Of a DNA stretch of 64,000 nt, positions 507-13,509 are shown piece by piece. The position numbers and the translations under genes are program-made. Position 1 is the first letter of the stretch. Each line of letters opens with the position of its first letter. The stretch comes from Dehalococcoidia bacterium (GTDB lineage Bacteria > Chloroflexota > Dehalococcoidia > Lucifugimonadales > UBA3495), in assembly GCA_965261355.1 (NCBI GenBank), contig OZ253464.1, forward strand, positions 1,241,907-1,305,906. The letters are read 5' to 3'. The notes under the pieces are model-generated. The model ran no database searches and was not told where the DNA came from. It saw only the letters and a program-made list of their open reading frames with translations.

Positions 507-2357
507 TCACTGCCGCAGCTGGGCGTATTCCAATCCGGTCAGTACGCGTTTGTCGCCGTACTCGAAATGTTCCTGCCAGGAGCCGACCCGAGGCCCAAGC
601 GGCCAGATCTGATTGACGCTGTACAGTCCCATTTCGACCACGTTCTCGTACGTGAAGCGTGCCACATCGACCATGATCGCATAACGCGCATCGTCATCTA
701 CGACTCGCAGCGCGTTCGCGATTCTTTCCTCCATATAGGCGTGCTCGAACCCCACGGTAAACGAAGCGTGCAGTGTGGTCAGCACCAGGAGCAAGCTCAA
801 CGGGTCAGTCCGGCCTCCAGTGCCGTGGCAGTTCGCCCCCTGGTAATCTCGGGTCCTTATCTGTGGTGAGAGAGAAGCATAGGGAATCTTCTGCAACTTG
901 ACATCGATTCCAATGTCCTCCCACATGGTGGCGATAGCCTCGCAGGCCTCCACCTCTGCCGGAACGCCACGGATGCTCGGCGTGAGGGTGATTTCGAATC
1001 CCCCACCAGGATAACCCGCTTCCGCCAGAAGCTGGCGGGCCTTTTCCGGATCGTAATCCCATTGCCTGATGTCCTCGGGGAGGCGGTGCAGGTTGTTTTC
1101 CCAGCCCCATAGAACCAGGGGCTTCCCCTCTCCGTGCAGAAGCTGGTCGACAATTCCCTGGCGGTCAATGGAAATTGCCATGGCTCTCCGGACCTTGGTG
1201 GCCTTCTCCCATTCCTCCGAGTTGGGCTCGGGGTCGGCGGAAACCCATGGAAGGTCTGGGTCATAGCCCGGACGCTGGTCCTCGGTGCCAAGGCCAACAT
1301 AGAACGCACCAAATATTCCCAGATGTTCCGTAGCTCCACCTTCCACCCGCATGAACTCAACGTCTTCAACTCTCTTGACGGCTGGCAGGGAGTCGAGACC
1401 AACGATGTTGAACGTGTCGAGGAGCCCCACCTGGAAATTTGCCAGCCGTGTCGACTCTTCGTTAATTTCGTGGAATACCAACTCAGCGAAATAAGGAGTC
1501 TTTCGCCAGTGGTCTTCCACCGCATTCATCTTCCAGAAGCGCCCCGACACCACCTCTGCAATTTCCCATGGCCCGGTGGCGGCTCCGTTGGCGCTGGCTT
1601 CGACCTCACCGAGTTCATCCACCTGCTTCTTGCTAACGATCTGTCCTGCGAAGGGCAGGCCCATCATAGGCAGAATATCGTACTGTACTTCGCCCGTATT
1701 TACCTCGATGGTGTAATCATCAATGGCCCTTGCACCACCTTCGGGGTTGTCCCAGAGCCGCTTGAGATGACTCGCGCGGGGCGAGATGCTGCCCTGGGCC
1801 CCGTATTTCTGCATCGTCCAGATGACGTCGTCTGCGGTCATCTCACCATAGCCCTTGTGAAACTGCACTCCCTCCTGCAGCTTGAATGTCCAAATAAGAC
1901 TGTCGGGGGTGACAGACCAGTCTGTGACCAGCTTGGGTAGAAAGTTTCCGTCGACCGTGGTCGATAGCAGCGATTCGCTTACGACACTGCCCACGAACAA
2001 CATGACCTGGCCGGGGGTCAACTTGGGATCGGTGCCGAAGAGGCCCAATTCCTTGTAGCCGACATTGATAGTCCCGGTAGGCACAACTCTATCCGACGTC
2101 GGTGCCGCGGCTGTTGCCGTTGGCTGGGCCTGCGGTACCGGGGTGGACGTTGCCGCAGGCTGGGGCGGCGTGGTCGCCATTGGCTGGGCAGGCGCCGCCT
2201 GCGTGGCGGCGGCAGTGGGCGCGATCGTAGCGTCGGCCTCAGGGGCTTGAGTTGCGGTGTCTGCCCCGCCGCAGGCGGCCAACAAAGCCAGGCAGAGAGC
2301 TACGGTCAGCAAGACAAGGATCCTTGGATCAACCAAAGGCCGACGACTCATAACCAT
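507..2357 (-). CDS. ABC transporter substrate-binding lipoprotein, family 5 (DppA/OppA/NikA-like)
   Basis: 616-aa ORF. It has a signal peptide with lipobox LLAACGG, then a ~60-aa Ala/Pro/Thr/Gln-rich linker, then a large SBP-like body (family resemblance by eye). GGGAG lies upstream of ATG 2357. Confidence 0.8.
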   Translation of the reverse strand: MVMSRRPLVDPRILVLLTVALCLALLAACGGADTATQAPEADATIAPTAAATQAAPAQPMATTPPQPAATSTPVPQAQPTATAAAPTSDRVVPTGTINVGYKELGLFGTDPKLTPGQVMLFVGSVVSESLLSTTVDGNFLPKLVTDWSVTPDSLIWTFKLQEGVQFHKGYGEMTADDVIWTMQKYGAQGSISPRASHLKRLWDNPEGGARAIDDYTIEVNTGEVQYDILPMMGLPFAGQIVSKKQVDELGEVEASANGAATGPWEIAEVVSGRFWKMNAVEDHWRKTPYFAELVFHEINEESTRLANFQVGLLDTFNIVGLDSLPAVKRVEDVEFMRVEGGATEHLGIFGAFYVGLGTEDQRPGYDPDLPWVSADPEPNSEEWEKATKVRRAMAISIDRQGIVDQLLHGEGKPLVLWGWENNLHRLPEDIRQWDYDPEKARQLLAEAGYPGGGFEITLTPSIRGVPAEVEACEAIATMWEDIGIDVKLQKIPYASLSPQIRTRDYQGANCHGTGGRTDPLSLLLVLTTLHASFTVGFEHAYMEERIANALRVVDDDARYAIMVDVARFTYENVVEMGLYSVNQIWPLGPRVGSWQEHFEYGDKRVLTGLEYAQLRQ

Positions 2358-2711: not shown

Positions 2712-2748
2712 CCCAAACGAAAGAGCCCCGGCGCATACACCGGGGCTC
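2712..2748 (-). terminator. rho-independent terminator downstream of the metal-transporter operon
   Basis: Perfect 9-bp stem GAGCCCCGG (2723-2731) / CCGGGGCTC (2740-2748). On the minus strand it is followed by TTTCGTTTGGGG (2712-2722). It lies 34 nt past the znuB stop. Confidence 0.6.
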
Positions 2749-2781
2749 TCAATAATTACTGTCGGTATTGACCCTGGAGTC

Positions 2782-3702
2782 TCAGTCACCCTCGGTCTTA
2801 ACGGTTTCCGGGGATCGGGCGATCGCAGCGTCGGTGGGAGAAACAGCAGGCACGGAGACGGACGCACGCTGGCGCACGGCCACCAGGCGGGATCGCAGGT
2901 AGGAGTAAGCCATCACGACAGCGAACACAGACGCTTCCACCAGCACTATGGTTGCGCCTGAAGACACGTCTACGAAGTAGCTCAGGTAGATCCCCAAGAA
3001 GCCGCAGACGGCGCCTATTCCGGCGGAAAGCGTCAGCATCCTGGGAAAGCTGTCGGTCAGCATTCTGGCGGACACCGGCGGAATGACCGTCGCTCCGGCG
3101 ATTAGCAGCACACCTAGCACCTGCAGGGAGACCACGATTGTCCCGGCCAGCACCAGCGAAAACATCGCTTCCACCCAGCCCGTTGGCACCCCGTAGAATT
3201 GTGCCACGTCGCCGTCGAAGGTGGTGAACAAAAAGTGCTTGTAAGCTATGAACAGCACGAGTACGGTTGCCACCGTAACCGCCAATAGCGCCACCAGGTC
3301 GCCCGGGGTGACCCCGACGATGTTGCCGAACAGAGCTGTCTCAAAGTCGCGGGTGAAGCTCTTGTAGCGGCTGATGAGCACGATTCCCACGGCGAAGCTG
3401 GCAGTGGTGATAACACCGATCGCGGCGTCATACGCGATCTTCCGCCTCTTGGTGGTCAGCGTGATGAGCTGGGCGCAGAGAAATCCCCACACGGTGGAAC
3501 CGATTAGAAAGTTCAGGGACATCACGTAGGAAACCACGGCACCGCCTAGGACGGCGTGGGCCAGACCGTGACCGACGTAGGCCATGCGCTTCAGAACAAC
3601 GTAAACGCCGATGCCGCCGCAGAGGGCTCCAGCCAATATGGCAGCCGCCATTCCTCTGAGCATGAACGGGTAGCCGAAGGGTTCCAGAAGTGTTTCAAGC
3701 AT
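2782..3702 (-). CDS. znuB: metal ABC transporter permease (ABC-3 family, ZnuB/MntB/TroCD-like)
   Basis: ORF 2782-3759 trimmed to ATG 3702 (MLETLLEPFGYPFMLRG...), which overlaps the upstream ATPase stop by 8 nt. The sequence is a polytopic membrane protein typical of ABC-3 permeases. Confidence 0.85.
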   Translation of the reverse strand: MLETLLEPFGYPFMLRGMAAAILAGALCGGIGVYVVLKRMAYVGHGLAHAVLGGAVVSYVMSLNFLIGSTVWGFLCAQLITLTTKRRKIAYDAAIGVITTASFAVGIVLISRYKSFTRDFETALFGNIVGVTPGDLVALLAVTVATVLVLFIAYKHFLFTTFDGDVAQFYGVPTGWVEAMFSLVLAGTIVVSLQVLGVLLIAGATVIPPVSARMLTDSFPRMLTLSAGIGAVCGFLGIYLSYFVDVSSGATIVLVEASVFAVVMAYSYLRSRLVAVRQRASVSVPAVSPTDAAIARSPETVKTEGD

Positions 3703-4555
3703 GGCTGTGGCTGTGCGCGGATGCCGCCTCGTCGCCCCGGGCGCCGCCATTGCGGCCATATCGGTGAGGGCTCTCGGCTACTATGGGCATTCCTTCGTAG
3801 TGAATAACCGGCATATCCGCCCCGTAGGTCTTGCGGAGGTTTTCCGATGTAATGACCTCGGACGGTGGCCCCTCGGCAAGGATGCCTCCAGCCAAGCATA
3901 CCAGCCAGGGCAGATGGACCGCCACGGCATTGATCTCGTGGGTGGTGATGACGATGGTGACACCCTCGTGGTTCAGGTCGTGCAGCAGGTGCATCATGTC
4001 GTCGCGTGTCTTTACGTCAACACCCGACGTGGGCTCATCCAGCAGCAACAGCGACGGGCTGCTCACCAGCGCTCGGGCCAGAAACACGCGCTGCTGCTGG
4101 CCTCCCGACAACTCGCGGATGTGGCGCCCCGCCAGATGAAGTATTCCCAGCTGGTCCATCATCCGGTCGGCCAGTTCTTTATCTTCTCGCCGGAACCAGG
4201 GAAAGAACCGGTTTTCCATAGTGCGGCCCATCATCACAACTTCCCGAACTGTGACCGGGAAGTTCCAGTCGATGGTCTCCAGCTGGGGCACATACCCGAT
4301 GCGTGGCCGCTTCTGAGTAGTCGCCACGCCGTTCACGAGCACTTCGCCTTCGTAAACGTCAACCGCGCCCAGCATGGAGCGGAGCAGGGTGGTCTTGCCA
4401 GAACCGCTGGGACCAAGCAGCCCAACGAAGTCTCCCCGCATTATCTGCAGGTCCACTTTCTGGAGCACCTTCTGTTTTTCGTAGCCGCAGGACAGGCCGT
4501 TGATTTCCACAAGTGTGGGACCGGAACGGTATTGATGAGGAAGGGGGTGAAGCAT
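3695..4555 (-). CDS. znuC: metal ABC transporter ATP-binding protein (ZnuC-like) with His-rich C-terminal tail
   Basis: Walker A GPSGSGKTT, signature LSGGQQQR and Walker B LLLLDEP are present. The C-terminus reads ...GDEAASAHSHSHA. The gene is translationally coupled to the permease. Confidence 0.85.
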   Translation of the reverse strand: MLHPLPHQYRSGPTLVEINGLSCGYEKQKVLQKVDLQIMRGDFVGLLGPSGSGKTTLLRSMLGAVDVYEGEVLVNGVATTQKRPRIGYVPQLETIDWNFPVTVREVVMMGRTMENRFFPWFRREDKELADRMMDQLGILHLAGRHIRELSGGQQQRVFLARALVSSPSLLLLDEPTSGVDVKTRDDMMHLLHDLNHEGVTIVITTHEINAVAVHLPWLVCLAGGILAEGPPSEVITSENLRKTYGADMPVIHYEGMPIVAESPHRYGRNGGARGDEAASAHSHSHA

Positions 4556-4640: not shown

Positions 4641-7600
4641 CTAGTGATTGTGGTGATGCCCCCCCGGCATTCCGGCCCACCCTTCGGGCAAATCCGGTTC
4701 ATGCTCGTGACCACCGCCGTCCGAGTGTTCAGGCTCATTGCCGTTGGTCGCGCTGACCAGCTGCGTCGCGACAAGCTGGGCGTAGAGGCCCTGTCGCGTC
4801 AGCAGTTCCTGGTGGCTTCCTTGCTCCACCGCCTCGCCATGGTCCAGGACCACGATCCGGGCGGCGTCGCGTATCGTTGAAAGACGATGGGCGATGACCA
4901 GCGTGGTCCGCCCTTGCATCAGGTTCTCCAGCGCCTGCCTCAACTGGCTCTCGCTGACCGCGTCCAAGTGGGAAGTGGCTTCATCGAGGATCAGCACGGG
5001 GGCGTTCTTCAACAGGGCCCGGGCGATGGCGATTCGCTGGCGCTGGCCGCCGGAGAGTTGCATACCCCGTTCGCCGACGATGGTGTCGTAGCCGTCGGGG
5101 AAGGTCGTGATGAAGTCATGGCAGTTAGCCTGCCTCGCTGCATCCTCCAGGTCAGTTTGAGCCGCATCGGGCCTGCCCAACATTATGTTTTGCCGAATGG
5201 TCGCATTAAACAGGTAGGTGTCCTGGGAAACGAGCGCAATCTGGCTGCGCAACTCTTCCAGCTTGAACTCGCGAAGGTCGTGACCATCCAGCCGGACCGA
5301 CCCTGTGGCAGGGTCCCAGAATCGCATCGCAAGGTTCGCGCAGGTGGTCTTGCCAGCGCCCGACCGGCCCACCAGCGCCACGGTGTGGCCCGGCTCAACC
5401 CTGAAGCTGACTCCGCTCAGGGCCTGGGGCTCCCCGGGACCGTAGTCAAACCCAACGTGTTCGAAGTTCAGCGCAGGCGCCGCAGTTCCGTGTGCGTCGT
5501 GACGGCCGTCGTGTCCATCATGCAGGAGAACACCCGGGCCGTCGGCGACGGGCACCGGTTCGTCGTGAATGTCGAAAAGCCGCCGCGATGCCGCCAGGGT
5601 CTCCATGAGCTGCTTCATGGTGCGTGCTATGTCCGTAACAGGAGCGAAGGCTGCGACTGATAGGACGACAGCCAATATCAGCTCGGGCCTCGTGATGTTC
5701 CCGTTAGTGAGAAGCCAGACGCCAATGGCCAGCACAATCAGCCCGCCAAGGGCCGTCATCGATTCGATGAACCCGATCTGGAAGGCGCGTTCCTTGAGGA
5801 ATCGCAACTGGATGTGGGCGAACCGCCAGCTGTTGTCCACCATTTCAGCGGTCCTCGAGCGGCCCCGTCCAAAGGCAGAGATTTCCCGCATGCCCTGGAT
5901 GCTGTCAACCATGTGGGCGTGGACGTCGCCCAACTGGTGCCGAAGTTCCTCGCCCAGCCGCTCGGAGCGCTTCTGGGCAAAGAAGGGACTGAGGGCCACC
6001 ACCACGAGGAAGGGCGCAACGGCCACGGCCATGGGCCATGCGATTACGGCCAGCACGGCAACCACGACGCCGGGAACCACGACGGCGGTGAACGCAGGTG
6101 TGATGGTATGGGCGAAGAAGAACTCGACGGTCTCGACATCGCCACCGACCACGCTGACGAGGTCGCCCGACCGGCGACGGGTCATATAGGCGGGAGCCAG
6201 GGGGTCCAGTTTGCGGTAAACGTCCACGCGCATTTCGGCCAGCAGACGATAGGCCAGGTCGTGGGCCACCCAGGATTCCGTCCAGACGAAGAAGGCGGCC
6301 AACGGCGTCAGGACTCCCAACAGTATCAACAGCAGGGTCAGGTCGCCACCGGTGATGACTGCGCCAACCAGCAGGGCGCTGACGACCGCGACGCCTATGG
6401 CGGTGCCGTGATGCGCCACGCCCAGCAGGAATGTCAGGGAGAGTTCCGCGCCCCAGGGTCTCACCAGCCCAAGCAGCCGAATCCACACGGCGATGATGCC
6501 CAGCCTAGCGGGGTCTCCGTCGTGTTGGTGTTCCTCGTGATCACGGCGGACTGCCGGAGCCGCGTGGTGGTGGCCGTGGCCGTCGTGGCCCGGACGCGGC
6601 ATGAATGCGTCGGCATCGGGCTCCGGAACGTGGTCGGCATGCGCGGCGGCGTGGACGGCATGACGCTCGGCTTGCGCGTGGCCGGCGTCGCGGTGGTGCG
6701 CCTGGGCGGCACCGGGCTCTGCATGGCCGTGTTCGTTATTGTCGTGAGCATCATGGTCGTGAGCATCGCGAGCGTGATGCCCCGCTGATTCATCGTGGTG
6801 GGAGCCATCGCGATCATGGTCGGAATTATGGCGTTCGTGGCCATGTTCGTGCTCCCGGTCGGCATCGCTCCGATGGCTCTGCGGGGCGTCGTGATGCTGG
6901 TGCCCATGTCCCCCGTGGGCGGTGCGCGGCATGAAGGCTGCCACATCCACCTGCGGGACGGAATGGTGCCCATGGTCACTCGTTTCCGGTGCGGGCTGAA
7001 TTCCGAAGTCCAGCCGCTCCTGCTGCTGGGCCATCAGCCCGGCGTACAAGCCTCCGGCGGCCACCAGCGCGGTGTGATTGCCCGATTCGACCAGCCGGCC
7101 CTCATCAAGAACAAGGATGCGGTCGGCGTTGAGCACGCTGGAAAGACGGTGGGCGATGATCAGCGTCGTGCGGCCCTCCATCAGACGGTCAAGGGCTTCC
7201 TGTATGACTGCCTCGTTTTCGGCGTCCACGCTGGACAGCGCTTCGTCGAGTATGAGGACGGGGGCGTCCTTAAGCAGGGCGCGGGCGATGGCGATTCGCT
7301 GCTTCTGTCCACCCGAGAGCCGAACGGCGCGTTCTCCTACAACGGTATCGTATCCGTTTGCGAGGTGGTGGATGAATTCGTGGGCATTGGACGCACGAGC
7401 GGCCTGCTCCAGCTCATCCTGCGTTGCATTGGGATTGCCGAAACGGAGGTTGTCAGCGACCGTGCCGTGGAAGAGGTAGGTGTCCTGGGTGACGACCGAA
7501 ATTTGCTCTCTCAACTGCTCCAGCGGTATTGAGCGCAGGTCTCGACCACCTAGTTGAATTACACCTTCCTGCGGGTCAAAGAAACGCAGCATCAGCCAGA

Positions 7601-8756
7601 CAATGGTGGACTTGCCAGCGCCACTGGGCCCGACCAAGCCCAGCGTTTCTCCCTCGTGCAGGGTGAAGCTGAGGTCGTGGAGAGCGGGTCGGCGCCCCTC
7701 GCTATAGGCGTGGCTTACGCCCTCGAAGGAAAACTCCGCCTTAACGTCGGCAACAGACTCTGCGGAGTCATTCGCCTGACTGCGGTCGGGGTCCTGGACC
7801 GAGACCGGTGAATCCATGATCGCGAAAATGCCTTCGGCTGAGGACATGGCCATCACGCCGTCGTGGTACAGCTGCACCAGTTCCCGCAGAGGCCGGAAGA
7901 CCTCGACGCCCAGCATCAGGACTATCATCAGCGCCCGTAGTTCCAGGTCGCCGTCGGCTACACGCACGGCCCCCCAGCCCAGCGCGACCGCAGCGCCGCC
8001 GGTGATGCCGAGAATGGTCAGGGAGCCGGTGGCCGCGTTGGCCGAGAGGACTCCCATGGTGGTGCGAAAGAGTTGGCGGGCCCGCTCGGCCAGCAGTTCG
8101 CCTCGGACTCCGCTCTGGCCGAAAGCCTTGAGCGTCGCCAGTCCCTGAACCGCGTCGAGGAAGTCGGCCCCCAGCGCTCCATAGGCGTCGCGCCGCGCCA
8201 TGCTGCGTTCCCGGTTCCAGCGGTGAAACATGTTCGGGATTACCAGGGTCAGGAGCGCGAACCCCAGGAAGATCAGGCCAGTGTAGAAATCGATGAGGGC
8301 CATGAAAATGAAGATGACGACCGGGGCCAGGGCTGCGACGATCATCTGCGGCAGGTAACGGCCGAAGAATGCTTCAAGTCGCTCGACGCCCTCGGCCAGC
8401 GACATCAGGGCATCCCCGGTGCGCGATGAGTCGAAGTGGCCCGGCCCCAGGGCCAGCGAGTGCTCGTACAGGCGCTCCCGCAGCTTCACCTTGACCAGGC
8501 TGGCGGTGTGGTGGCTCATGACCTCCTGCAGGTACTGCAGGCAAGCGCGGGCCACGATGAGGACCGCCATAATGACCAGGGGCCAGGTAAGGGACTCGAA
8601 GGTGGCGTTTCCTCGCACCACTTCGACGATGATTACCGCGGCTACAGCCAACCGGGCCACCCCGGCGGCCACGGCCAGCATTCCCACCACAGCGGAGATG
8701 ATGATGCGCCAGCGTACGTCAGCGGCCAGCGCCAGCAGCCTGGGATGCAGATACAT
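4641..8756 (-). CDS. fused double ABC exporter (TMD-NBD-His-rich linker-TMD-NBD; CydDC/MdlB-type halves), 1371 aa
   Basis: A single uninterrupted ORF. It has two hydrophobic 6-TM-like blocks, each followed by an NBD (Walker A GPSGAGKST and GRSGAGKTT; signatures LSGGQKQR and LSGGQRQR; Walker B LILDEA(L/T)S). The C-terminal tail is GGGHEHE...GGHHHNH. Confidence 0.85.
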   Translation of the reverse strand: MYLHPRLLALAADVRWRIIISAVVGMLAVAAGVARLAVAAVIIVEVVRGNATFESLTWPLVIMAVLIVARACLQYLQEVMSHHTASLVKVKLRERLYEHSLALGPGHFDSSRTGDALMSLAEGVERLEAFFGRYLPQMIVAALAPVVIFIFMALIDFYTGLIFLGFALLTLVIPNMFHRWNRERSMARRDAYGALGADFLDAVQGLATLKAFGQSGVRGELLAERARQLFRTTMGVLSANAATGSLTILGITGGAAVALGWGAVRVADGDLELRALMIVLMLGVEVFRPLRELVQLYHDGVMAMSSAEGIFAIMDSPVSVQDPDRSQANDSAESVADVKAEFSFEGVSHAYSEGRRPALHDLSFTLHEGETLGLVGPSGAGKSTIVWLMLRFFDPQEGVIQLGGRDLRSIPLEQLREQISVVTQDTYLFHGTVADNLRFGNPNATQDELEQAARASNAHEFIHHLANGYDTVVGERAVRLSGGQKQRIAIARALLKDAPVLILDEALSSVDAENEAVIQEALDRLMEGRTTLIIAHRLSSVLNADRILVLDEGRLVESGNHTALVAAGGLYAGLMAQQQERLDFGIQPAPETSDHGHHSVPQVDVAAFMPRTAHGGHGHQHHDAPQSHRSDADREHEHGHERHNSDHDRDGSHHDESAGHHARDAHDHDAHDNNEHGHAEPGAAQAHHRDAGHAQAERHAVHAAAHADHVPEPDADAFMPRPGHDGHGHHHAAPAVRRDHEEHQHDGDPARLGIIAVWIRLLGLVRPWGAELSLTFLLGVAHHGTAIGVAVVSALLVGAVITGGDLTLLLILLGVLTPLAAFFVWTESWVAHDLAYRLLAEMRVDVYRKLDPLAPAYMTRRRSGDLVSVVGGDVETVEFFFAHTITPAFTAVVVPGVVVAVLAVIAWPMAVAVAPFLVVVALSPFFAQKRSERLGEELRHQLGDVHAHMVDSIQGMREISAFGRGRSRTAEMVDNSWRFAHIQLRFLKERAFQIGFIESMTALGGLIVLAIGVWLLTNGNITRPELILAVVLSVAAFAPVTDIARTMKQLMETLAASRRLFDIHDEPVPVADGPGVLLHDGHDGRHDAHGTAAPALNFEHVGFDYGPGEPQALSGVSFRVEPGHTVALVGRSGAGKTTCANLAMRFWDPATGSVRLDGHDLREFKLEELRSQIALVSQDTYLFNATIRQNIMLGRPDAAQTDLEDAARQANCHDFITTFPDGYDTIVGERGMQLSGGQRQRIAIARALLKNAPVLILDEATSHLDAVSESQLRQALENLMQGRTTLVIAHRLSTIRDAARIVVLDHGEAVEQGSHQELLTRQGLYAQLVATQLVSATNGNEPEHSDGGGHEHEPDLPEGWAGMPGGHHHNH
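6513..6977 (-). other. histidine-rich inter-half linker of the fused ABC exporter (155 aa, 38 His by my count)
   Basis: Translation runs DHGHHSVPQVDVAAFMPRTAHGGHGHQHH...DADAFMPRPGHDGHGHHHAAPAVRRDHEEHQHDGD. The composition is His/Asp/Glu/Ala-rich with no Cys. The segment lies between NBD1 and the second transmembrane block. Confidence 0.9.
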
Positions 8757-8819
8757 GGCTACGTCTCCTCTGTCATCATGCGCCTAGTCAGATTCGGGTT
8801 ACGCGCTCTGCGGCACAGC

Positions 8820-9848
8820 CTATTGCGGATAGACCGCACCGCTCTCTCCTTCAAACACAGGGCTGACGTCCACGCCATCGAAGGCGCCAGCGTTGCCCCC
8901 AAGGGCAGGGATCATGATTCGCATATTATGGCGCATCAGGCCGAGGTAAGAATGCTCAGGGTCACCGGGAGCGCCGGGCAGATCGTCGTCTGCGAGCTCA
9001 TCGATGAAGGCGGTGTTCCCTTCGCGAGCGATGGTCTCGAGCACACCGCTGGGAAATTCTTCCGAGCCAAAAATTGCCGGCAGGCCGAGCTCCCTGACCT
9101 GGTCGATGAGTTCGGCAACTTCCCTCGCAGAAGGCTCGGCGAAGTCGGAAGGCTGGACTGCGCCTATTACCTCCATTCCGTAGGTGAGGGCGAAATAGGC
9201 CCACGAGTCGTGGTATGTGACCAGCTTGCGGTTCTCGGGCGGAATCGTGGCGACGGATTCCCGGATGGCGGTGTCCATCGCTTTAATGCGCAAACGAAAG
9301 TCCTCGAGGCTACTCAGGTAATAGTCAGCGTTTTCAGGGTCGAGGGATGAGAGTTGCTGCTGCACCAGTTCGGCGTACTTCAGGCCAAGGAGCGGGTCAG
9401 GCCACAGATGGGGGTTCGGGTGTCCTTCAGACTCGGGAAAACTGAAGTCGAACCGCCACTGCTCCTTCGAGATAGCATTGTCCCCCAAAAGGATGATCGG
9501 AGTTTCGTTCTTCTTGTTGGCCTCAGCCAGTTCGAGGGTTGGCTGCTCCAGGAACAGTCCGTTCGCGATTATCAGGTCTGCGTCGGTCATCAGCCTGGCC
9601 AGCGAGGGCTGCGGTTCAAAGACGTGGGAGTTGACTCCCTCCGGGACCACCCCTTCGAGCTGGATACGGTTGCCTCCAATGTTCTCCACGATGCTGGTTA
9701 TGGGGGAGACCGTTGTAACCACCCTCAGTTTGCCTCCGTCATCCTGCTCCGTGCCACACCCCATCGTCAGGGCCAAGACCACAAGAATTGCCAGGATAGT
9801 TCTGGAATTAAGAGACCGTTTTACCTGCCGAGAAATCACCAGAATCAA
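8820..9848 (-). CDS. znuA: metal ABC transporter substrate-binding lipoprotein (cluster A-I, ZnuA/TroA-like)
   Basis: Lipobox LALTMGCG is present. Ligand motifs are NSHVFEP, NPHLWPDP and YHDSWAYF (His at the third ligand position, which is Zn/TroA-type rather than the Glu of Mn-type PsaA). The start codon is uncertain (TTG 9848 or GTG 9839). Confidence 0.85.
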   Translation of the reverse strand: MILVISRQVKRSLNSRTILAILVVLALTMGCGTEQDDGGKLRVVTTVSPITSIVENIGGNRIQLEGVVPEGVNSHVFEPQPSLARLMTDADLIIANGLFLEQPTLELAEANKKNETPIILLGDNAISKEQWRFDFSFPESEGHPNPHLWPDPLLGLKYAELVQQQLSSLDPENADYYLSSLEDFRLRIKAMDTAIRESVATIPPENRKLVTYHDSWAYFALTYGMEVIGAVQPSDFAEPSAREVAELIDQVRELGLPAIFGSEEFPSGVLETIAREGNTAFIDELADDDLPGAPGDPEHSYLGLMRHNMRIMIPALGGNAGAFDGVDVSPVFEGESGAVYPQ

Positions 9849-9856
9849 CTCTTGAA

Positions 9857-10345
9857 CTACGAATCAATCGCCCCGGGGTGCTGGGTGGACTCGGCTTCCT
9901 TGCTCTGGCAGTCCGCACAGACTCCCGACACGGAAAAATGCTCGAGGTCAGGGACAAAACCGAACTCGTGGACCAGTGTTTCCCTGAACTCAGACAAGTA
10001 GTGGGGGCTGAGGTTGTAGGCTCCGCTGCACACGCGGCATACCATGTGGTGGTGACGGTCGTGCGGCAGCGTCAACTCATAATGGAGGCGGTCGCCGATT
10101 TCAACCTCGGTCACCACTCCGGCGTCCTTGAACAGCCGCAGTGTCCGGTACACCGTAGCGATATCCATGAATTGGTAGGCCTCGCGGGCGCGGCGGAATA
10201 CCTCATCCACGCCCATGTGCTGCCGGCCCTCAGCCATCACGGAGAGCACCAGCAGTCTCTGGGGAGTGAGCCTGTGGCCCTGGAGGCGGAGCTTTTCCAA
10301 TGCCTGGTCGTGATGCAACGCGCGAGCCCTAGTAGATGCAATCAA
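9857..10345 (-). CDS. zur: Fur-family metalloregulator, Zur by context
   Basis: Winged-helix segment HRLTPQRLLVLSVM...VYRTLRLF, HHHMVC, and two CxxC pairs (CRVC, CADC). It lies 8 nt upstream of znuA. No ATG start is present; candidates are TTG 10345 or TTG 10318. Confidence 0.8.
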   Translation of the reverse strand: MIASTRARALHHDQALEKLRLQGHRLTPQRLLVLSVMAEGRQHMGVDEVFRRAREAYQFMDIATVYRTLRLFKDAGVVTEVEIGDRLHYELTLPHDRHHHMVCRVCSGAYNLSPHYLSEFRETLVHEFGFVPDLEHFSVSGVCADCQSKEAESTQHPGAIDS

Positions 10346-10357
10346 TTGCCGAAAACA

Positions 10358-10385
10358 ATTGTAGCGACAGGCAAGGGAAAGTCAA
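10358..10385 (-). promoter_or_regulatory. candidate sigma-70-type promoter of the zur operon
   Basis: Minus strand reads TTGACT (10385-10380), 16-nt spacer, TACAAT (10363-10358). Three CAATTG hexamers (10343-10348, 10356-10361, 10383-10388) overlap the -35, the -10 and the start region. Confidence 0.4.
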
Positions 10386-10418
10386 TTGTGCGCGGAGGGG
10401 GTTTGAGGGGTACCAACC

Positions 10419-11570
10419 TCAGTGGGCAATGCGAATTATGCTGTACATGTGCCGGAACAGGCGCATCGCCTCGCCCAGGAGCTCCCCAATCCCACTGGCG
10501 CCGGGCCGTACGTGCTCGAATGACAAGACCTCAGTGTAGCGGACGTCGCCCCGCTCTTCGGTTGCTGCCAGCAGGCGCCGGGATTCGGCGGCGGGCACAA
10601 GGCGATCGTACCGGTCGTGCAAGACCAGCAGGCGCGCTTGCACATCGTCGATATGCATGGAGGGCGAAACATCGGCCATGGCCATCCGGAAATCGGCAGG
10701 GAGTTCCTCGTATAGGGTGGCAGCTTCCTCCGGCGTGGTTCCGTCCAGCAGCGTGGAAACTGTCCGTGCCTGCGGCGATAGCGCCTCCAACTCCTCAGGG
10801 CTGAGCGCCTGATTGTTCATATACCGCCGGGTGAGCGAGTCGACATCAGAGGGATCATCCAGCGTCTCGATTAACTCGTTTGCCAGTACCCGCATGGTCA
10901 GGCGGTCCGGCTCCCAGTCTGTACGCTCACCGTCGTACAGGACCGAGCGCGACGCCGCCTGCAGCAACAGGCTCCCGGCGTCGAAATATGGTCCGAAGGC
11001 GTTCACGAAATGCACGTCTTCCCGGATCCTCTGGTCAGCGGCGGCCACCAGCGCAAAAGACGCACCGACGCAGAAGCCACCGAGGCCCGTGCGGTCGGAG
11101 TCCACGTATTCACGTTCGCTGAGGTACTGGTAGGCGGACACGAGGTTGCCGGTCTCGGCGGGCTCTATGTTGGCTCGCAAGGCCATGGTGGGGGACCAGT
11201 GGAACATGGCGACATATCCGGCTCTGGCGAGCGCGCTACCGAGGTTGATGACGTCGGGGTCGTCTCGGCCAGCTGCGTTGGCGCCCAGGAACAGCACCAC
11301 GGCCGCTCGGGGCTTGCCGTCGGCAGGGCGGTACACGTCGGCTACTGTCGTGCCGTCGGACGAAGGGTAGTGGACCTCATGCCGTAGCGGTTCGTCGGTA
11401 AACCAGGCCTGTGGCTTGATTGGAAGCTCCAGCACCTGTGTAACAAACAGCGTCGTATGGAATCCGGCGCGGCCCTGGGGCGTCACAGCGATAAAAAGCG
11501 TCAGCAGCACACCGAGCACCACCAACGCCTGAAACAGCCACGAGGCCCCTTTCCGGACAACCCGAATCAA
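10419..11570 (-). CDS. membrane-anchored alpha/beta hydrolase, dienelactone-hydrolase-like (Cys nucleophile elbow)
   Basis: An N-terminal hydrophobic helix (WLFQALVVLGVLLTLFIAV) is followed by an alpha/beta-hydrolase-like body with elbow GGFCVGAS. This G-x-C-x-G form matches DLH-type enzymes. Confidence 0.65.
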   Translation of the reverse strand: MIRVVRKGASWLFQALVVLGVLLTLFIAVTPQGRAGFHTTLFVTQVLELPIKPQAWFTDEPLRHEVHYPSSDGTTVADVYRPADGKPRAAVVLFLGANAAGRDDPDVINLGSALARAGYVAMFHWSPTMALRANIEPAETGNLVSAYQYLSEREYVDSDRTGLGGFCVGASFALVAAADQRIREDVHFVNAFGPYFDAGSLLLQAASRSVLYDGERTDWEPDRLTMRVLANELIETLDDPSDVDSLTRRYMNNQALSPEELEALSPQARTVSTLLDGTTPEEAATLYEELPADFRMAMADVSPSMHIDDVQARLLVLHDRYDRLVPAAESRRLLAATEERGDVRYTEVLSFEHVRPGASGIGELLGEAMRLFRHMYSIIRIAH

Positions 11571-11636
11571 GACGTCACCAGCCGCCCGTTGACCTCAATA
11601 TCGAAGCAGCGGAATTTGCCGATTCCAGCGGTGCCA

Positions 11637-12905
11637 CTATACACGCACCATTCTCATCATGAAAACAGAGACCACCCGAGTTGCCGCCATGGCCAGGAAT
11701 ACGATAGGCCACGGACTTCCGGTCATATCCAGCACAACTCCGAACACGATGGCCTGGGCGCCCGCGTAGAGGTAGCCGTGGGCGTCGAGGATTCCCGACG
11801 CCGTGCCGGCCATACGGCGCCCACCCAAGTCGACAGACACCGTCGACATGGGCGACATTCCCATCGCAATTCCCCCGGTCAGCAGCAGCGCGGCGCCCAG
11901 CAATTCGTTGGAGGGCGGCACCAGGGCGATAACCGAGATGATCACAGCGCTGGCCAGGCACGAGGATATCACCAAGGGCCGGCGCTGGCTGTTCAGGAAG
12001 TGGTCGGAAATAAAGCCGGACAGTGGCGGCGCGATGAGATACCCCACCGGCAGCAGTACCGTCACAAACACGGTGGACTCGATTGACAGTCCGCCAACTT
12101 CCGAATAGTAGATGGCGACCCAGGTGGTCAGGCCGTAGCGGACGACGTTCTCCAGCCCCTTGACATGGCAGGCCATCAGAAACCTTGTGTTGCCCAGAAG
12201 CACCCGGTACGGCCCCAGGCCTCGCAACCTTGCGGGATCCACAGATTCCGGAGTTGCCGATACCTCGTCTTCTTCTATGTATTCCGGCAGCCCCACGTCG
12301 GCGGGGCGATCGCGGACCAAAAAGTAGAACGCTACCCCTATGACGGCAAATACCAACGGCAGGTAGCGGAAAGCGGCCCGCCATCCCCATTCTGCGCCTA
12401 CCCAGCCTGCGAGGGCCCACATCAGCAGCATTGCGCCGCCCGCGGAGGTGCCAACGATGCCCAGCGCGACACCACGATGGCTGCGGGGCCACCACTGGGA
12501 GATCATGCTCATGGCGGGAGCCCAGCAGGCGGCGTTGACGAAACCTGCGAGGCCAAGCGGGACCGCCATGGTGAGCGGAGAGGTGGCAAAGCTTGTCAGC
12601 CAGTTGAAGACGGCCGTAAGCACCGCTCCCAGCATGACCCACAGGCGGAGCCCGAATGCCTCGGCGAGCCGCCCGTGGAAGACATCGCCCAAGGCAAAGC
12701 CCCAGAACAGCATTGCCCAGATGATCGCGATGTCGATGTTGCTGAGGCCCAGGTCTTCCTTTACCAGCGGGCCCAGCGGATAGAGGCTGAAGCGCCCGAG
12801 GTATGCGAACAGGTAGAAGACAGCGAACGCCAGCAGCACCCGCCACTTGAACACGTGGTAAGCGCGGGGCAGATCGTCAAACCGTACTGCATCGACGCTG
12901 CTCAT
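11637..12905 (-). CDS. MFS transporter
   Basis: 422-aa polytopic ORF with an MFS-like N-terminus (FAVFYLFAYLGRFSLYPLGPLVKEDLGLS...GDVFHGRLAEAFG). The overlapping ORF 11575-12846 in another frame is Arg/Gly/Pro-rich noise. Confidence 0.8.
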   Translation of the reverse strand: MSSVDAVRFDDLPRAYHVFKWRVLLAFAVFYLFAYLGRFSLYPLGPLVKEDLGLSNIDIAIIWAMLFWGFALGDVFHGRLAEAFGLRLWVMLGAVLTAVFNWLTSFATSPLTMAVPLGLAGFVNAACWAPAMSMISQWWPRSHRGVALGIVGTSAGGAMLLMWALAGWVGAEWGWRAAFRYLPLVFAVIGVAFYFLVRDRPADVGLPEYIEEDEVSATPESVDPARLRGLGPYRVLLGNTRFLMACHVKGLENVVRYGLTTWVAIYYSEVGGLSIESTVFVTVLLPVGYLIAPPLSGFISDHFLNSQRRPLVISSCLASAVIISVIALVPPSNELLGAALLLTGGIAMGMSPMSTVSVDLGGRRMAGTASGILDAHGYLYAGAQAIVFGVVLDMTGSPWPIVFLAMAATRVVSVFMMRMVRV

Positions 12906-12950
12906 ACTCAGGGACCGCTAGGGCTGAATTGCGAGGAATGCCGATCGCTG

Positions 12951-13000
12951 AAAACGGCCAAGCCCGGGCGACCGCGCGACGTAATGCGGGCCCGGGCCTT
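12951..13000 (-). terminator. candidate terminator after the VOC gene
   Basis: AAGCCCGGGC (12960-12969) pairs with GCCCGGGCCTT (12990-13000) with one bulge. On the minus strand the stem is followed by GTTTT (12951-12955). Confidence 0.4.
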
Positions 13001-13032
13001 GAAACACACTGGGGTGGCAGTGGCTGAAGGAG

Positions 13033-13509
13033 TTAGCTGGCCGGTATGGCGGCCCTAGCTATGCCGATCAGCTCCTCGTTGGAGGCTTCCAGGTCGATCA
13101 GGTCGCCGTGGGGCTGAGGGACATCGAACCCGGTCTTGCAGTAGAGCTCGATGCGGTTGCCCTCCGGGTCGAAGAAGTACATTCCGAAGGCGTTGCCGTG
13201 GCTGACTATCCGGTCAATCTCGACACCCTCGGACTTGATGCGCTGGTGGTATTCCTTCAGGTCGTCCAGACCGGGGACGATGAAGGAAATCTGCTGAATG
13301 ACCTTGGCATCGCCCGAGGTCACCCGGCCCTTCATCAGAACGAACTCATGGTGTTCGCGTACGGGATCGGAGCTGAGGAAGCTCATCCCACGGCCGTCCA
13401 GATCCTCGTCAGCGATCTCCAGACCCATCACGCGGGTGTAGAAGTCTCGCTGCTTCATAATGTCTTCGGCGTAAATACCGACGTGTCCCAGACCTTCAAT
13501 CTTCGCCAT
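13033..13509 (-). CDS. VOC family protein (glyoxalase/bleomycin-resistance/extradiol dioxygenase fold)
   Basis: 158 aa. It opens with GLGHVGIYAEDIMKQRDFYTRVMGL and has a second half-domain with EGVEIDRIVSHGNAFGMYFFDPEGNRIEL. Confidence 0.8.
   Translation of the reverse strand: MAKIEGLGHVGIYAEDIMKQRDFYTRVMGLEIADEDLDGRGMSFLSSDPVREHHEFVLMKGRVTSGDAKVIQQISFIVPGLDDLKEYHQRIKSEGVEIDRIVSHGNAFGMYFFDPEGNRIELYCKTGFDVPQPHGDLIDLEASNEELIGIARAAIPAS

What the first reader, a model, noticed from the sequence alone, without database searches (positions are those of the whole stretch)
4641..8756. Giant fused double ABC exporter wedged inside a Zur-headed znuA/znuCB importer operon
The minus-strand gene order is: Fur/Zur-family regulator (9857-10345), ZnuA/TroA-type binding lipoprotein (8820-9848), a 1371-aa ORF, ZnuC-like ATPase, ZnuB-like permease. 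The gaps are 8, 63 and 85 nt and then an 8-nt overlap, and a terminator appears only after znuB. The large ORF is not importer-type. It consists of two complete exporter half-transporters, each with a 6-TM block plus an NBD carrying Walker A, signature and Walker B motifs. The halves are fused head to tail, joined by a His-rich linker, and end in GGHHHNH. I do not know of an exporter-fold ABC protein as a standard component of znuABC loci. Plausible roles are export of a zinc-scavenging metallophore, metal efflux or buffering coupled to uptake, or a metal-sensing regulatory ABC protein. I consider this the best candidate for an undescribed system in the window.
Basis: partly seen in the sequence, partly recalled or inferred. 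Interest (0 to 1): 0.72.

Follow-up and report, generated by a model that had tools for sequence, protein, structure and literature searches.

The report
His-rich ABC exporter inside metal-uptake operon
A group of uncultured Dehalococcoidia bacteria carry a large two-in-one ABC "exporter" with histidine-rich, probably metal-binding, cytoplasmic tails inside a probable zinc-uptake operon; this arrangement appears undescribed and hints at an unknown step in bacterial zinc handling.

Summary
On the minus strand lie a Fur-family regulator, a ZnuA/TroA-type lipoprotein, a 1371-aa fused ABC exporter (EXP), a ZnuC-like ATPase and a ZnuB-like permease. One conserved promoter and operator precede them, and one strong terminator follows znuB.

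EXP is a type IV (ABCB/CydDC-like) full transporter. Pipelines name its relatives "CydC" or "CydCD", but no homolog examined lies next to cydAB.

EXP homologs were found in 56 species-level Dehalococcoidia/SAR202-type genomes:
- 44 have EXP between znuA and znuCB.
- 4 keep only EXP plus ZnuC.
- 8 have EXP alone in unrelated contexts; 6 of the 7 placed on the tree are basal.

The znu-linked clade alone carries 1-3 copies of a linker motif, DxxAF[MIV]PxPAHxGxGHHHH, in a disordered cytoplasmic linker. Every family member ends in a His tail, and ZnuC has one too. The membrane domains barely changed when the gene entered the operon.

"Zur" is not verified. The regulator and its operator (GCAA-N4-TTGC) look Nur-like, while the binding protein has zinc-type ligands (three His plus Asp).

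Function is inferred only. I favour an accessory transporter of a metal-starvation regulon, gated by cytosolic metal through the His-rich segments. Direction and substrate are unresolved. It is a new variant of known kinds and moderately interesting.

The parts
10358..10385 (-). Sigma-70-type promoter TTGACT-16-TACAAT in front of the regulator gene. It is the only promoter-like site found for the five-gene block.
   Evidence: 10 of 12 matches. The same TTGAC(T/A)-N17-CTAnnAT architecture is conserved in the 38 species with a Fur hit and upstream DNA.
10338..10349 (.). Operator palindrome GCAATTGATTGC (GCAA-N4-TTGC), 8-9 nt after the -10 hexamer. It overlaps the mechanically called TTG start of the regulator ORF.
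   Evidence: The strict box sits at the same position in 33 of 38 species, against a background of 0.047 per kb across the loci. Its geometry resembles the Nur box tTGCaa-N5-ttGCAA (PMC2691836).
9857..10345 (-). Fur-family metalloregulator. The true start is probably the conserved TTG at 10318 (MHHDQALEKL...). It has four Cys in two CxxC pairs. Metal specificity is unresolved.
   Evidence: Pfam FUR 4e-21. All NCBIfam hits are below cut-off. Best PDB hits: Nur 3EYY 81.6 bits, PerR 73, Fur 67.5, ScZur 53.5. It has Glu, Glu, His where Nur has the Ni-site residues H70, H72, H126. The conserved TTG-CAT-CAC is seen.
8820..9848 (-). ZnuA/TroA/AztC-type (cluster A-I) metal-binding lipoprotein, with a lipobox-like LTMGC. 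Its ligand set is His, His, His, Asp.
   Evidence: Pfam ZnuA 2e-64. Best NCBIfam hit is AztC at 177.9 bits, below cut-off. In the alignment to PsaA/MntA, the query has His where Mn-type proteins have Glu205, and Asp at the position of D280.
4641..8756 (-). EXP: a 1371-aa fused type IV ABC exporter-fold transporter, built as TMD1-NBD1-linker-TMD2-NBD2-tail. The RBS GAGGAG lies 8 nt before the ATG.
7752..8756 (-). EXP TMD1 (aa 1-335), six TM helices, CydD-like half.
   Evidence: ABC_membrane is matched in two stretches. The N half scores best on CydD TIGR02857: 411.7 bits against a cut-off of 435.
7017..7736 (-). EXP NBD1 (aa 341-580) with canonical Walker A, Q-loop, signature, Walker B-Glu and H-loop.
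6501..7016 (-). Cytoplasmic inter-half linker (aa 581-752), rich in His, Asp and Glu. Its length is hypervariable among species (64-209 aa in znu-linked forms) and it is predicted to be disordered.
   Evidence: pLDDT is about 30 for the modelled part. A small 15-nt x 2.3 tandem repeat lies at 6743-6777.
6891..6947 (-). Linker motif copy 1: DVAAFMPRTAHGGHGHQHH (aa 604-622).
6564..6617 (-). Linker motif copy 2: DADAFMPRPGHDGHGHHH (aa 714-731). F718, P720, P722, H724, G726, G728 and H730 are invariant in alignment A1.
5487..6500 (-). EXP TMD2 (aa 753-1090), six long TM helices, CydC-like half.
   Evidence: CydC TIGR02868: 356 bits against a cut-off of 329. Foldseek TM-score to CydC 7zda_C is 0.84.
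4752..5474 (-). EXP NBD2 (aa 1095-1335), canonical motifs.
4644..4751 (-). EXP C-terminal disordered tail ending in ..EGWAGMPGGHHHNH. A His tail is present in every family member, including the basal standalone ones.
   Evidence: pLDDT is below 50.
3695..4555 (-). ZnuC/AztA/MntA-like importer ATPase with a C-terminal tail ..ASAHSHSHA. It lacks the E. coli ZnuC zinc-sensing motif.
   Evidence: The E. coli motif is described in PMC12236471.
2782..3759 (-). ZnuB/AztB-like ABC-3 permease. The likely start is Met20 at 3702, giving an 8-nt overlap with znuC.
   Evidence: ZnuB is 291 aa in other genomes.
2714..2749 (-). Intrinsic terminator of the operon: a 10-bp G+C-rich stem, an 8-nt loop and a T-rich tail, 32 nt after the znuB stop.
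   Evidence: Read directly from the sequence.

Best explanation
What it is (shown; about 0.85 confidence): a five-gene operon, fur-family regulator, znuA-type binding lipoprotein, EXP, znuC, znuB. It has one promoter with an overlapping palindromic operator and one terminator. EXP is a fused type IV ABC transporter of the Chloroflexota 'CydCD-like' orphan family. A disordered, His-rich cytoplasmic segment follows each of its two ATPase domains.

How it most likely works (inferred; about 0.3 confidence):
1. With metal bound, the regulator occupies the operator just downstream of the -10 box. The whole block, EXP included, is therefore made only when the metal is scarce. The binding protein's ligands point to zinc.
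2. EXP supports acquisition rather than detoxification. It pumps out an organic metal-binding ligand, the same unknown substrate its standalone orthologs move. The ZnuA lipoprotein and ZnuBC then recover the metal.
3. The AFxPxPAHxGxGHHHH linker motifs and the C-terminal His tails of EXP, together with the His tail of ZnuC, act as low-affinity cytosolic metal sensors. When cytosolic zinc rises they bind it and restrain the ATPase domains. This would shut export and import off together, faster than transcriptional repression can.

Steps 1-3 are inference from anatomy, conservation and precedent. No expression, binding or transport data exist.
For: Operon unity:
- There is a single promoter-like site with a conserved operator.
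- The internal gaps hold no terminator or promoter, and a terminator follows znuB.
- Order and strand are conserved in 44 of 56 species. Gaps are 10-156 nt (znuA to EXP) and 8-247 nt (EXP to znuC).
- The operator sits right after the -10 box, the position of a repressor.

Metal:
- The binding protein has His, His, His, Asp, with His where Mn-type proteins have Glu.
- AztC and AztB are the best NCBIfam hits.

EXP fold:
- Pfam and NCBIfam results.
- AF2 model with pLDDT 76 and Foldseek hits only to type IV exporters.

The His-rich segments are derived and tied to the operon:
- The motif is present in 44 of 45 znu-clade proteins (74 copies) and in 0 of 6 basal standalone proteins.
- None of 15 outgroup representatives has a His-rich linker or tail.
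- The segments are predicted to be disordered. They must be cytoplasmic because they follow the NBDs; this follows from established ABC exporter architecture.

The substrate path did not change on capture: only 23 clade-specific positions differ, all conservative, and no new His, Cys or Asp appears in TM segments.

Precedents:
- Metal-uptake loci that include a ligand exporter, such as CntE and CntI in opine-metallophore systems (own knowledge).
Against: - No ligand biosynthesis genes are conserved nearby. The upstream MFS is an organophosphate/anion type and the hydrolase has no assignable function.
- Four species keep EXP and ZnuC but have lost ZnuA, ZnuB, the regulator and the operator. That is hard to reconcile with a ligand made for ZnuA.
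- Basal orthologs sit in non-metal contexts, without the operator, yet already carry a His tail.
- The regulator's metal is not established. It is Nur-like rather than Zur-like.
- His-rich tails suit Ni or Co handling as well as Zn.
- There are no transcript, binding or transport data.
Confidence: 0.3

Rival explanations
1. Exporter-fold importer. Like YbtPQ and IrtAB, EXP would run inward and bring organically complexed zinc (a foreign or environmental chelate) into the cell, in parallel with ZnuABC, which takes the free ion. The cytoplasmic His-rich linker and tails would strip or accept the metal at the inner face, much as the cytoplasmic siderophore-interaction domain fused to IrtA processes iron.
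For: - Type IV ABC transporters in metal-starvation regulons have twice proved to be importers (PMC7002159, PMC11779899).
- YbtPQ and IrtAB are among the Foldseek matches.
- No biosynthesis genes are needed, which fits the neighbourhood.
- EXP remains useful without ZnuA and ZnuB, as in the four EXP+ZnuC species.
- Cytoplasmic metal-binding appendages make most sense where the metal arrives.
- Expression under metal limitation is implied by the operator position.
Against: - No sequence signature separates importers from exporters of this fold, so nothing here tests direction.
- Sequence similarity to YbtPQ or IrtAB is no higher than to Sav1866, MsbA or CydDC.
- The TM domains are unchanged from standalone orthologs in non-metal contexts.
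Confidence: 0.2
2. Zinc-shock relief valve. EXP would export excess metal, probably as a thiol or other conjugate as in Atm1/HMT1-type transporters. It is co-expressed with the high-affinity importer so that starved cells survive sudden resupply. Metal binding to the His-rich segments would activate the pump or feed it.
For: - Yeast Zap1 induces the cytosol-clearing transporter ZRC1 during zinc deficiency for exactly this reason (PMC2535606).
- His-rich cytosolic loops are typical of zinc and nickel efflux proteins such as CDF/ZnT and RcnA (own knowledge).
- Atm1-family structures are among the fold matches.
- The His tail predates capture, and standalone orthologs would make sense as allosterically activated efflux pumps.
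- EXP stays useful after loss of ZnuA and ZnuB.
Against: - I know of no type IV ABC exporter shown to pump zinc in bacteria.
- Placing an efflux pump under a starvation-induced operator is unusual in bacteria.
- The TM segments carry no clade-specific metal ligands.
Confidence: 0.2
3. Ordinary CydDC-type or general-purpose exporter (thiol, heme, lipid or drug) that merely hitch-hikes in the operon. The His-rich stretches would be compositional drift in a disordered linker, with no role in metal homeostasis.
For: - NCBIfam places the C half above the CydC cut-off and the N half just below the CydD cut-off.
- Pipelines name relatives CydC or CydCD.
- CydC gives the highest TM-score.
- Basal and outgroup members are standalone in unrelated contexts.
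- The TM domains are unchanged.
Against: - The position between znuA and znuCB is kept in 44 species down to about 66% identity, with gaps as small as 8-14 nt.
- The motif is not drift. A 19-residue pattern has invariant F, P and H in all 74 copies and G in 70-71, inside otherwise hypervariable sequence. It is duplicated or triplicated, and restricted to the znu-linked clade.
- ZnuC carries a matching His tail.
- No cydAB lies within 7-8 kb in any locus examined.
Confidence: 0.15

Closest known systems
CydDC (E. coli heterodimeric ABC exporter for thiols/heme, needed for cytochrome bd assembly) and the fused 'CydCD' forms annotated in Actinobacteria and Chloroflexota
   Same: - Type IV exporter fold.
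- A CydD-like half precedes a CydC-like half.
- TIGR02857 is the best hit for the N half, and TIGR02868 is passed by the C half.
- The best structural TM-score is to CydC (0.84).
- Pipelines give relatives this name.
   Different: - No cydAB lies near any of the 12 loci inspected.
- The N half falls below the CydD cut-off.
- E. coli CydD and CydC are not among the 60 best PDB sequence hits.
- Both ATP sites are canonical.
- EXP carries a His-rich linker and tail.
- EXP is embedded in a metal-uptake operon.
ZnuABC / AztABCD / TroABCD cluster A-I metal importers under Fur-family control
   Same: - The flanking genes are this system: a ZnuA-family SBP with 3His+Asp ligands, an ABC-3 permease and an ATPase, headed by a Fur-family regulator.
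   Different: - No described member of these systems carries an exporter-fold ABC gene between the SBP gene and the ATPase gene. Literature searches were negative.
- All equivalog cut-offs are missed.
- ZnuC lacks the E. coli zinc-sensing motif and has a His tail instead.
YbtPQ and IrtAB (siderophore importers with exporter fold)
   Same: - Type IV ABC transporters encoded in metal-starvation regulons.
- IrtA carries an extra cytoplasmic metal-processing domain.
- Both are structural matches.
   Different: - They are heterodimers of separate chains.
- They are linked to siderophore biosynthesis clusters and iron.
- They have no His-rich disordered segments.
- They show no specific sequence affinity to EXP.
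Cytosolic zinc-sensing elements of zinc transporters (ZnuC zinc-sensing domain; His-rich loops of ZIP and CDF/ZnT proteins)
   Same: - A cytoplasmic metal-binding element attached to the transporter, proposed to gate transport after translation (PMC12236471).
   Different: - Here the elements are disordered His-rich segments following the NBDs of an exporter-fold ABC protein, with a defined AFxPxPAH-G-GHHHH motif.
- They are not a folded Cys/His domain, and not a loop between TM helices.
Nur (Streptomyces coelicolor nickel-responsive Fur homolog)
   Same: - It is the best solved relative of the regulator.
- The operator has TTGCAA-like half-sites separated by several bases (6-4-6 here, 6-5-6 for Nur), unlike 7-1-7 Fur/Zur/PerR boxes.
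   Different: - Two of the three Ni-site histidines (H70, H72) are Glu here.
- The spacing is one base shorter.
- The regulated importer is ZnuA-type rather than NikA or NikM type.
Zap1-ZRC1 'zinc shock' logic in yeast; PA4063-PA4066 Zur-regulated non-canonical ABC system in Pseudomonas aeruginosa
   Same: - Both are examples of a zinc-starvation regulon that includes an unexpected transporter type.
   Different: - The protein families differ: CDF in yeast, MacB-type in Pseudomonas.
- Neither gene lies inside the znu operon.

Membership tests
Type IV (ABCB-like) ABC exporter fold, full transporter | Two transmembrane domains of six long helices (PF00664), each followed by an NBD (PF00005) | tested here: met
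   Pfam matches ABC_membrane in two stretches (1e-53) and ABC_tran in two stretches (8e-69). The AF2 model of the C half has six long helices plus an NBD, pLDDT 76. All top Foldseek hits are type IV exporters.
Type IV (ABCB-like) ABC exporter fold, full transporter | Catalytically competent NBD motifs: Walker A, Q-loop, LSGGQ, Walker B with Glu, H-loop | tested here: met
   Both NBDs are canonical in the translation and invariant in alignment A1.
CydDC (thiol/heme exporter for cytochrome bd assembly) | Each half passes the curated equivalog model (TIGR02857 CydD, TIGR02868 CydC) | tested here: inconclusive
   N half: CydD is the best hit but scores 411.7 against a cut-off of 435. C half: CydC scores 356 against a cut-off of 329 and passes; MsbA scores higher (405.7) but is far below its own cut-off of 602.
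CydDC (thiol/heme exporter for cytochrome bd assembly) | Genomic linkage with cydAB | tested here: not met
   No cytochrome bd genes lie within 7-8 kb in 9 family loci. None lie within 6 kb in the four loci (L072-L075) returned for 3 outgroup proteins. None lie among the window's neighbours at 1-16.8 kb. The rest of each genome was not searched.
CydDC (thiol/heme exporter for cytochrome bd assembly) | Required for cytochrome bd / periplasmic redox homeostasis; transports thiols or heme | not testable with these tools
   This needs genetics and biochemistry.
ZnuABC/AztABC-type cluster A-I metal importer (flanking genes) | ZnuA-family SBP, ABC-3 permease and ABC ATPase in one operon | tested here: met
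   Pfam ZnuA 2e-64, ABC-3 7e-61, ABC_tran 4e-31.
ZnuABC/AztABC-type cluster A-I metal importer (flanking genes) | Zinc-type primary ligands in the SBP (three His, plus Asp/Glu/water), as opposed to the Mn-type His-His-Glu-Asp set | tested here: met
   In the alignment to PsaA and MntA, the query has H, H, H (where PsaA has E205) and D (where PsaA has D280). The ligand rule itself comes from own knowledge of cluster A-I structures. The TroA-type 3His+Asp set can also bind Mn or Fe.
ZnuABC/AztABC-type cluster A-I metal importer (flanking genes) | Passes the curated equivalog cut-offs (AztC/AztB/AztA or ZnuA/ZnuB) | tested here: not met
   AztC 177.9 against 350, AztB 188.3 against 280, AztA 179.5 against 220, ZnuA 66 against 268, ZnuB 104 against 284.
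Zur (zinc uptake regulator) | Fur-family fold with a structural Cys4 site | tested here: met
   Pfam FUR 4e-21. Two CxxC pairs are present.
Zur (zinc uptake regulator) | Zinc-sensing site including a Cys (ScZur C79 in the M-site), and closest similarity to known Zur proteins | tested here: inconclusive
   There is no fifth Cys. By my own register, anchored on the CxxC motif, the query has Thr where ScZur has C79. ScZur, MtZur and EcZur rank below Nur, PerR and Fur. However, Synechococcus Zur also lacks the M-site (PMC11077047).
Zur (zinc uptake regulator) | 7-1-7 type Zur box operator | tested here: not met
   The conserved operator is GCAA-N4-TTGC(AA), a 6-4-6 arrangement. By contrast, the Zur and Per boxes have a single central base (PMC2691836).
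Nur (nickel-responsive Fur homolog) | Ni-site His70, His72, His126 | tested here: not met
   The query has Glu, Glu, His at these positions in the alignment to 3EYY.
Nur (nickel-responsive Fur homolog) | Palindromic TTGCAA half-sites separated by several bases | tested here: inconclusive
   The half-sites are alike, but the spacing is 4 rather than 5.
Exporter-fold metal-chelate importers (YbtPQ, IrtAB) | Inward transport of a metal-chelate by a type IV fold | not testable with these tools
   No sequence signature for direction is known. The only result is a structural match at the general fold level.

The most novel reading that the evidence does not exclude
EXP would be the first zinc-dedicated transporter with the ABC exporter fold. 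Its activity would be set directly by cytosolic zinc through intrinsically disordered His-rich motifs that follow each ATPase domain, and it would be hard-wired into the uptake operon. It would work either as an importer of organically complexed zinc or as a zinc-shock relief valve. The ZnuC ATPase, always kept next to it even where ZnuA and ZnuB are lost, would be a functional partner. If the importer version is right, it would give a molecular handle on how oligotrophic SAR202-type bacteria use the ligand-bound zinc that dominates in seawater and soils.
Probability: 0.25. Interest if true: 0.8.

Novelty: new variant of a known kind. Interest (0 to 1): 0.55.

Why it matters
Bacterial zinc-uptake operons are thought to be well understood: a regulator, a binding protein, a permease and an ATPase, sometimes with a chaperone or metallophore genes.

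Here a full ABC exporter-fold transporter has been a fixed fifth member of such an operon across at least 44 species of an abundant but uncultured lineage. After it was captured, it evolved a defined His-rich motif. This points to an unknown step, which could be ligand export, chelate import or overflow protection. It also points to a possible new way of gating an ABC transporter, through disordered metal-binding tails on the ATPase domains.

The finding gives three concrete experimental objects:
- the AFxPxPAHxGxGHHHH motif;
- a Nur-like operator, GCAA-N4-TTGC;
- a natural set of variants: znu-linked, EXP+ZnuC only, and standalone.

If the His segments turn out to be inert, the result is only an unusual gene order.

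Tried and rejected
I used the N half instead.
2. A word-index search with the 50-aa motif region found no candidates at all, so I cannot say whether the motif exists in other protein families. Within the 75 held loci and the window it occurs only in EXP.
3. A second perfect palindrome, GCAATTTATTGC at 26168-26179, was considered as another regulon site. It lies between mraW and ftsA and is probably chance.
4. The conserved upstream MFS and alpha/beta-hydrolase genes were considered as a metallophore exporter and esterase. The MFS is an organophosphate/anion type and the hydrolase has only marginal hits, so I rejected them as evidence.
5. I looked for cydAB linkage and found none.
6. The E. coli ZnuC zinc-sensing motif is absent from this ZnuC: only the first Cys aligns.
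7. I searched for clade-specific metal ligands in the TM segments and found none.
8. An Rfam scan of the whole window for riboswitches or other RNAs found no match.
9. Three literature searches for an ABCB/CydDC-type exporter in Zur or znu contexts found nothing relevant. A fourth, for fused cydCD forms, likewise listed nothing on metal-uptake operons.
10. The promoter/terminator scan missed the real terminator after znuB, which I read by eye.

Full report
**1. The observation**

Pfam assigns them as follows:

| Coordinates | Pfam family | E-value |
|---|---|---|
| 9857-10345 | FUR | 4e-21 |
| 8820-9848 | ZnuA | 2e-64 |
| 4641-8756 | ABC_membrane, two stretches; ABC_tran, two stretches | 1e-53; 8e-69 |
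| 3695-4555 | ABC_tran | 4e-31 |
| 2782-3759 | ABC-3 | 7e-61 |

- The gaps are 8, 63 and 85 nt. The 8-nt znuC/znuB overlap holds if znuB starts at Met20, which fits the 291-aa ZnuB called in other genomes.
- The 1371-aa protein (EXP below) reads TMD1-NBD1-linker-TMD2-NBD2-tail. Both NBDs carry canonical Walker A, signature, Walker B-Glu and H-loop motifs. A His/Asp/Glu-rich linker spans about aa 581-752, and the protein ends in GGHHHNH.
- A strong intrinsic terminator lies 32 nt after the znuB stop: a 10-bp stem, an 8-nt loop, then TTCGTTT. I read it directly. The consensus scan missed it and found nothing in the internal gaps.

**2. What EXP is**

- Scored alone, the N half hits CydD best (TIGR02857, 411.7 bits, just under the cut-off of 435).
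- The C half passes the CydC model (TIGR02868, 356 bits against 329). It scores higher on MsbA (405.7) but is far below that model's cut-off of 602.
- By sequence against the PDB, both halves match generic ABCB-type exporters (Sav1866, MsbA, TM287/288, P-glycoprotein) at 1e-77 to 1e-143.
- An AlphaFold2 model of aa 700-1371 has a mean pLDDT of 76. It shows an elbow helix, six long TM helices and an NBD.
- The 49 linker residues in the model, which include the second His motif, and the last 34 residues have pLDDT below 50 and are probably disordered.
- Foldseek returns only type IV exporters. The best TM-score is to CydC (0.84). Atm1, IrtAB and YbtPQ are also in the list.

The exporter fold is therefore established. 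The linker and tail follow NBDs, so they must be cytoplasmic; this follows from the known architecture of the fold.

**3. Distribution and context**

More than 120 90%-identity clusters carry the same fused ORF at 66-100% identity. Almost all come from metagenomes. One named example is [quoted passage not shown].

A scan of one genome per GTDB species with two family-specific peptides found 56 loci. All are in Dehalococcoidia, SAR202 or Chloroflexota MAGs, at 60-87% identity. I ran tblastn with the window's neighbouring proteins against these loci:

| Arrangement | Species |
|---|---|
| Complete znuA-EXP-znuC-znuB (35 also have a detectable Fur gene) | 38 |
| On truncated contigs, consistent with the same order | 6 |
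| EXP plus the ZnuC-like ATPase only | 4 |
| EXP alone | 8 |

- Gaps run from 10 to 156 nt for znuA to EXP (median 63) and from 8 to 247 nt for EXP to znuC (median 84). The deeper-branching znu-linked members have 10-14 nt.
- The standalone genes sit among flavin reductase, luciferase-like monooxygenase, SGL and MOSC genes.
- A neighbour-joining tree on 1206 well-aligned columns puts 6 of the 7 standalone forms that could be included at the base and makes the znu-linked forms one clade. The three EXP+ZnuC forms included and one relocated standalone form nest inside that clade, so they are secondary losses.

**4. The wider family**

- A search of the 50%-identity representatives with the N half shows that the next relatives are also fused proteins, 1190-1290 aa long, at 35-45% identity.
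- None of the 15 outgroup representatives I read has a His-rich linker or tail.
- The nearest outgroup family occurs in Thermomicrobiales, Sphaerobacteraceae and other Chloroflexota. Pipelines name it CydC or CydCD.
- Three of its members looked up on long contigs are monocistronic, with no cydAB and no metal genes nearby.

So EXP derives from a Chloroflexota-wide orphan fused exporter. The 'CydDC' name rests on profile similarity only.

**5. The His-rich elements**

- Alignment shows that the linker is hypervariable in length and sequence, apart from one motif.
- A census found 74 copies in 44 of 45 znu-clade proteins and none in the 6 basal standalone proteins.
- The consensus is D-[AV]-[SE]-A-F-[MIV]-P-[QRS]-[PT]-[AG]-H-x-G-[HDE]-G-H-H-H-H-(A-A-P).
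- The window has two copies (aa 604-622 and 714-731). Two species have three tandem 25-residue copies.
- The basal forms have 56-58-aa linkers with 2-5 His.
- Every family member, basal ones included, ends in a related tail (..[MV]PG..GGHHHxH). The tail therefore predates the operon capture, and the linker motif came with it.
- The ZnuC-like ATPase of the operon also ends in a His-containing tail (GHSHSHA), which is longer and richer in other species. It lacks the Cys/His zinc-sensing motif described for E. coli ZnuC (PMC12236471).
- Only 23 positions separate the znu-linked clade from the basal forms. All changes are conservative, and none adds a potential metal ligand to a TM segment.

The translocation pathway, and presumably the substrate, did not change. 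The cytoplasmic appendages and the regulation did.

**6. Regulation**

- The only promoter-like site for the block is TTGACT-16-TACAAT at 10385-10358.
- The palindrome GCAATTGATTGC lies eight to nine bases after the -10 hexamer.
- The promoter and a strict GCAA-N4-TTGC box at the same position are present in 33 of 38 species that have upstream DNA. The background rate across the loci is 0.047 boxes per kb.
- The box overlaps the mechanically called TTG start. The conserved TTG-CAT-CAC at 10318 is the likelier start.
- The position fits a repressor that blocks initiation, so the block is probably expressed when the co-repressor metal is scarce. This is an inference.
- The box is absent upstream of the standalone genes and the EXP+ZnuC genes.

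**7. Which metal?**

In the alignment to PsaA and MntA, the binding protein has His, His, His, Asp at the four ligand positions. It has His where manganese-type proteins have Glu. That is the zinc/TroA/AztC pattern, and AztC and AztB are the best NCBIfam hits, though both are below cut-off.

The regulator is not demonstrably Zur:
- Its best solved relatives are Nur (81.6 bits), PerR (73) and Fur (67.5), ahead of the ScZur, MtZur and EcZur structures (53.5, 43.9 and 30.7).
- It has no Cys beyond the structural CxxC pairs, whereas the ScZur M-site uses C79. Synechococcus Zur also lacks that site, so this alone does not exclude Zur (PMC11077047).
- Its operator has half-sites separated by four bases, like the 6-5-6 Nur box tTGCaa-N5-ttGCAA and unlike the 7-1-7 Fur/Zur/Per boxes (PMC2691836).
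- It is not Nur either. Two of the three Ni-site histidines are Glu.

Zinc is the best guess from the transporter. The regulator's ligand is open.

**8. Mechanism**

The shown part is the anatomy, the conservation and the derived nature of the His motif. The rest is inference.

I favour, at about 0.3, an acquisition-side accessory transporter. It would export an organic metal ligand, the ancestral substrate. The His-rich segments of EXP and ZnuC would sense cytosolic metal and shut both pumps off after translation, by analogy with the ZnuC zinc-sensing domain and the ZIP His-rich loops.

The rivals are:
- an exporter-fold importer of chelated zinc, like YbtPQ and IrtAB, at 0.2;
- a zinc-shock relief valve, like yeast ZRC1 under Zap1, at 0.2;
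- a hitch-hiking general exporter, at 0.15.

Points that cut across the models:
- No ligand biosynthesis genes are nearby. This weakens the export model.
- The four species that keep EXP plus ZnuC without ZnuA and ZnuB also weaken the export model.
- The motif's tight conservation and its restriction to one clade weaken the hitch-hiker model.
- No model explains why ZnuC stays beside EXP.

**9. Novelty**

- Fused CydCD-like exporters and Fur-family-controlled znu operons are both known kinds.
- An exporter-fold ABC gene fixed between znuA and znuCB, with a defined His-rich linker motif, was not found in three literature searches aimed at it; a fourth, on fused cydCD, also listed nothing of the kind. 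No curated family model captures it.
- I class it as a new variant of a known kind, with interest 0.55.
- It would rise sharply in interest if the His segments are shown to gate transport, or if EXP moves zinc or a zinc chelate.

Noticed in passing
window 10338-10385; loci L010-L065 upstream of the Fur gene: The promoter plus GCAA-N4-TTGC(AA) operator is highly conserved, and a further conserved TTGCG lies 8-10 nt downstream. The geometry resembles the Nur box (6-5-6) rather than Fur/Zur boxes. This may define the DNA site of an uncharacterised Fur subfamily in Dehalococcoidia.
   Followed up: partly
L007/L050, L046, L051, L060 (EXP at about 7000-10840, ZnuC immediately after): Four species retain EXP and the ZnuC-like ATPase (75-81% identical to the window's, 8-nt gap). 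They have lost the regulator, ZnuA, ZnuB and the operator at the same syntenic site. Their ZnuC tails are longer and richer in His, Asp, Glu and Pro.
   Followed up: partly
L035 aa 598-672 and L037 aa 608-682 of EXP: The 25-residue His motif unit is triplicated in tandem (AFxPQPxHxGxGHGHEHxAPAVAV x3). This shows that the linker evolves by repeat expansion. In the window a 15-nt x 2.3 DNA repeat lies at 6743-6777.
   Followed up: partly
window 507-2357 (-) and 2518-2529: A 616-aa family-5 solute-binding lipoprotein (Opp/NikA-like, with a weak CntA hit) is inserted between znuB and the cupin gene. Among the held loci only the closest relative, L010, has it at this site. A one-mismatch copy of the operator (GCAATCAATTCC) lies about 160 nt upstream of its start.
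   Followed up: partly
window 26168-26179: A perfect palindrome, GCAATTTATTGC, matches the operator pattern in the 50-nt spacer between mraW and ftsA. It is probably chance.
   Followed up: yes
window 23577-27225 (-): mraW, ftsA and ftsZ are directly adjacent, with no mur, ftsW or ftsI genes between them. This is a very reduced division cluster.
   Followed up: no
EXP aa 26, 118, 138, 314, 956: Five of the 23 substitutions that separate the znu-linked clade from the basal standalone forms are Leu to Met.
   Followed up: no
window 10419-15112 (-): The block M17 aminopeptidase, glyoxalase-fold protein, MFS (organophosphate/anion type), alpha/beta-hydrolase lies upstream of the operon. It is syntenic in most family genomes, including those that lost ZnuA and ZnuB. 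No functional link to the operon was found.
   Followed up: partly
window 1-64000: No Rfam family reaches its gathering score anywhere in the window.
   Followed up: yes
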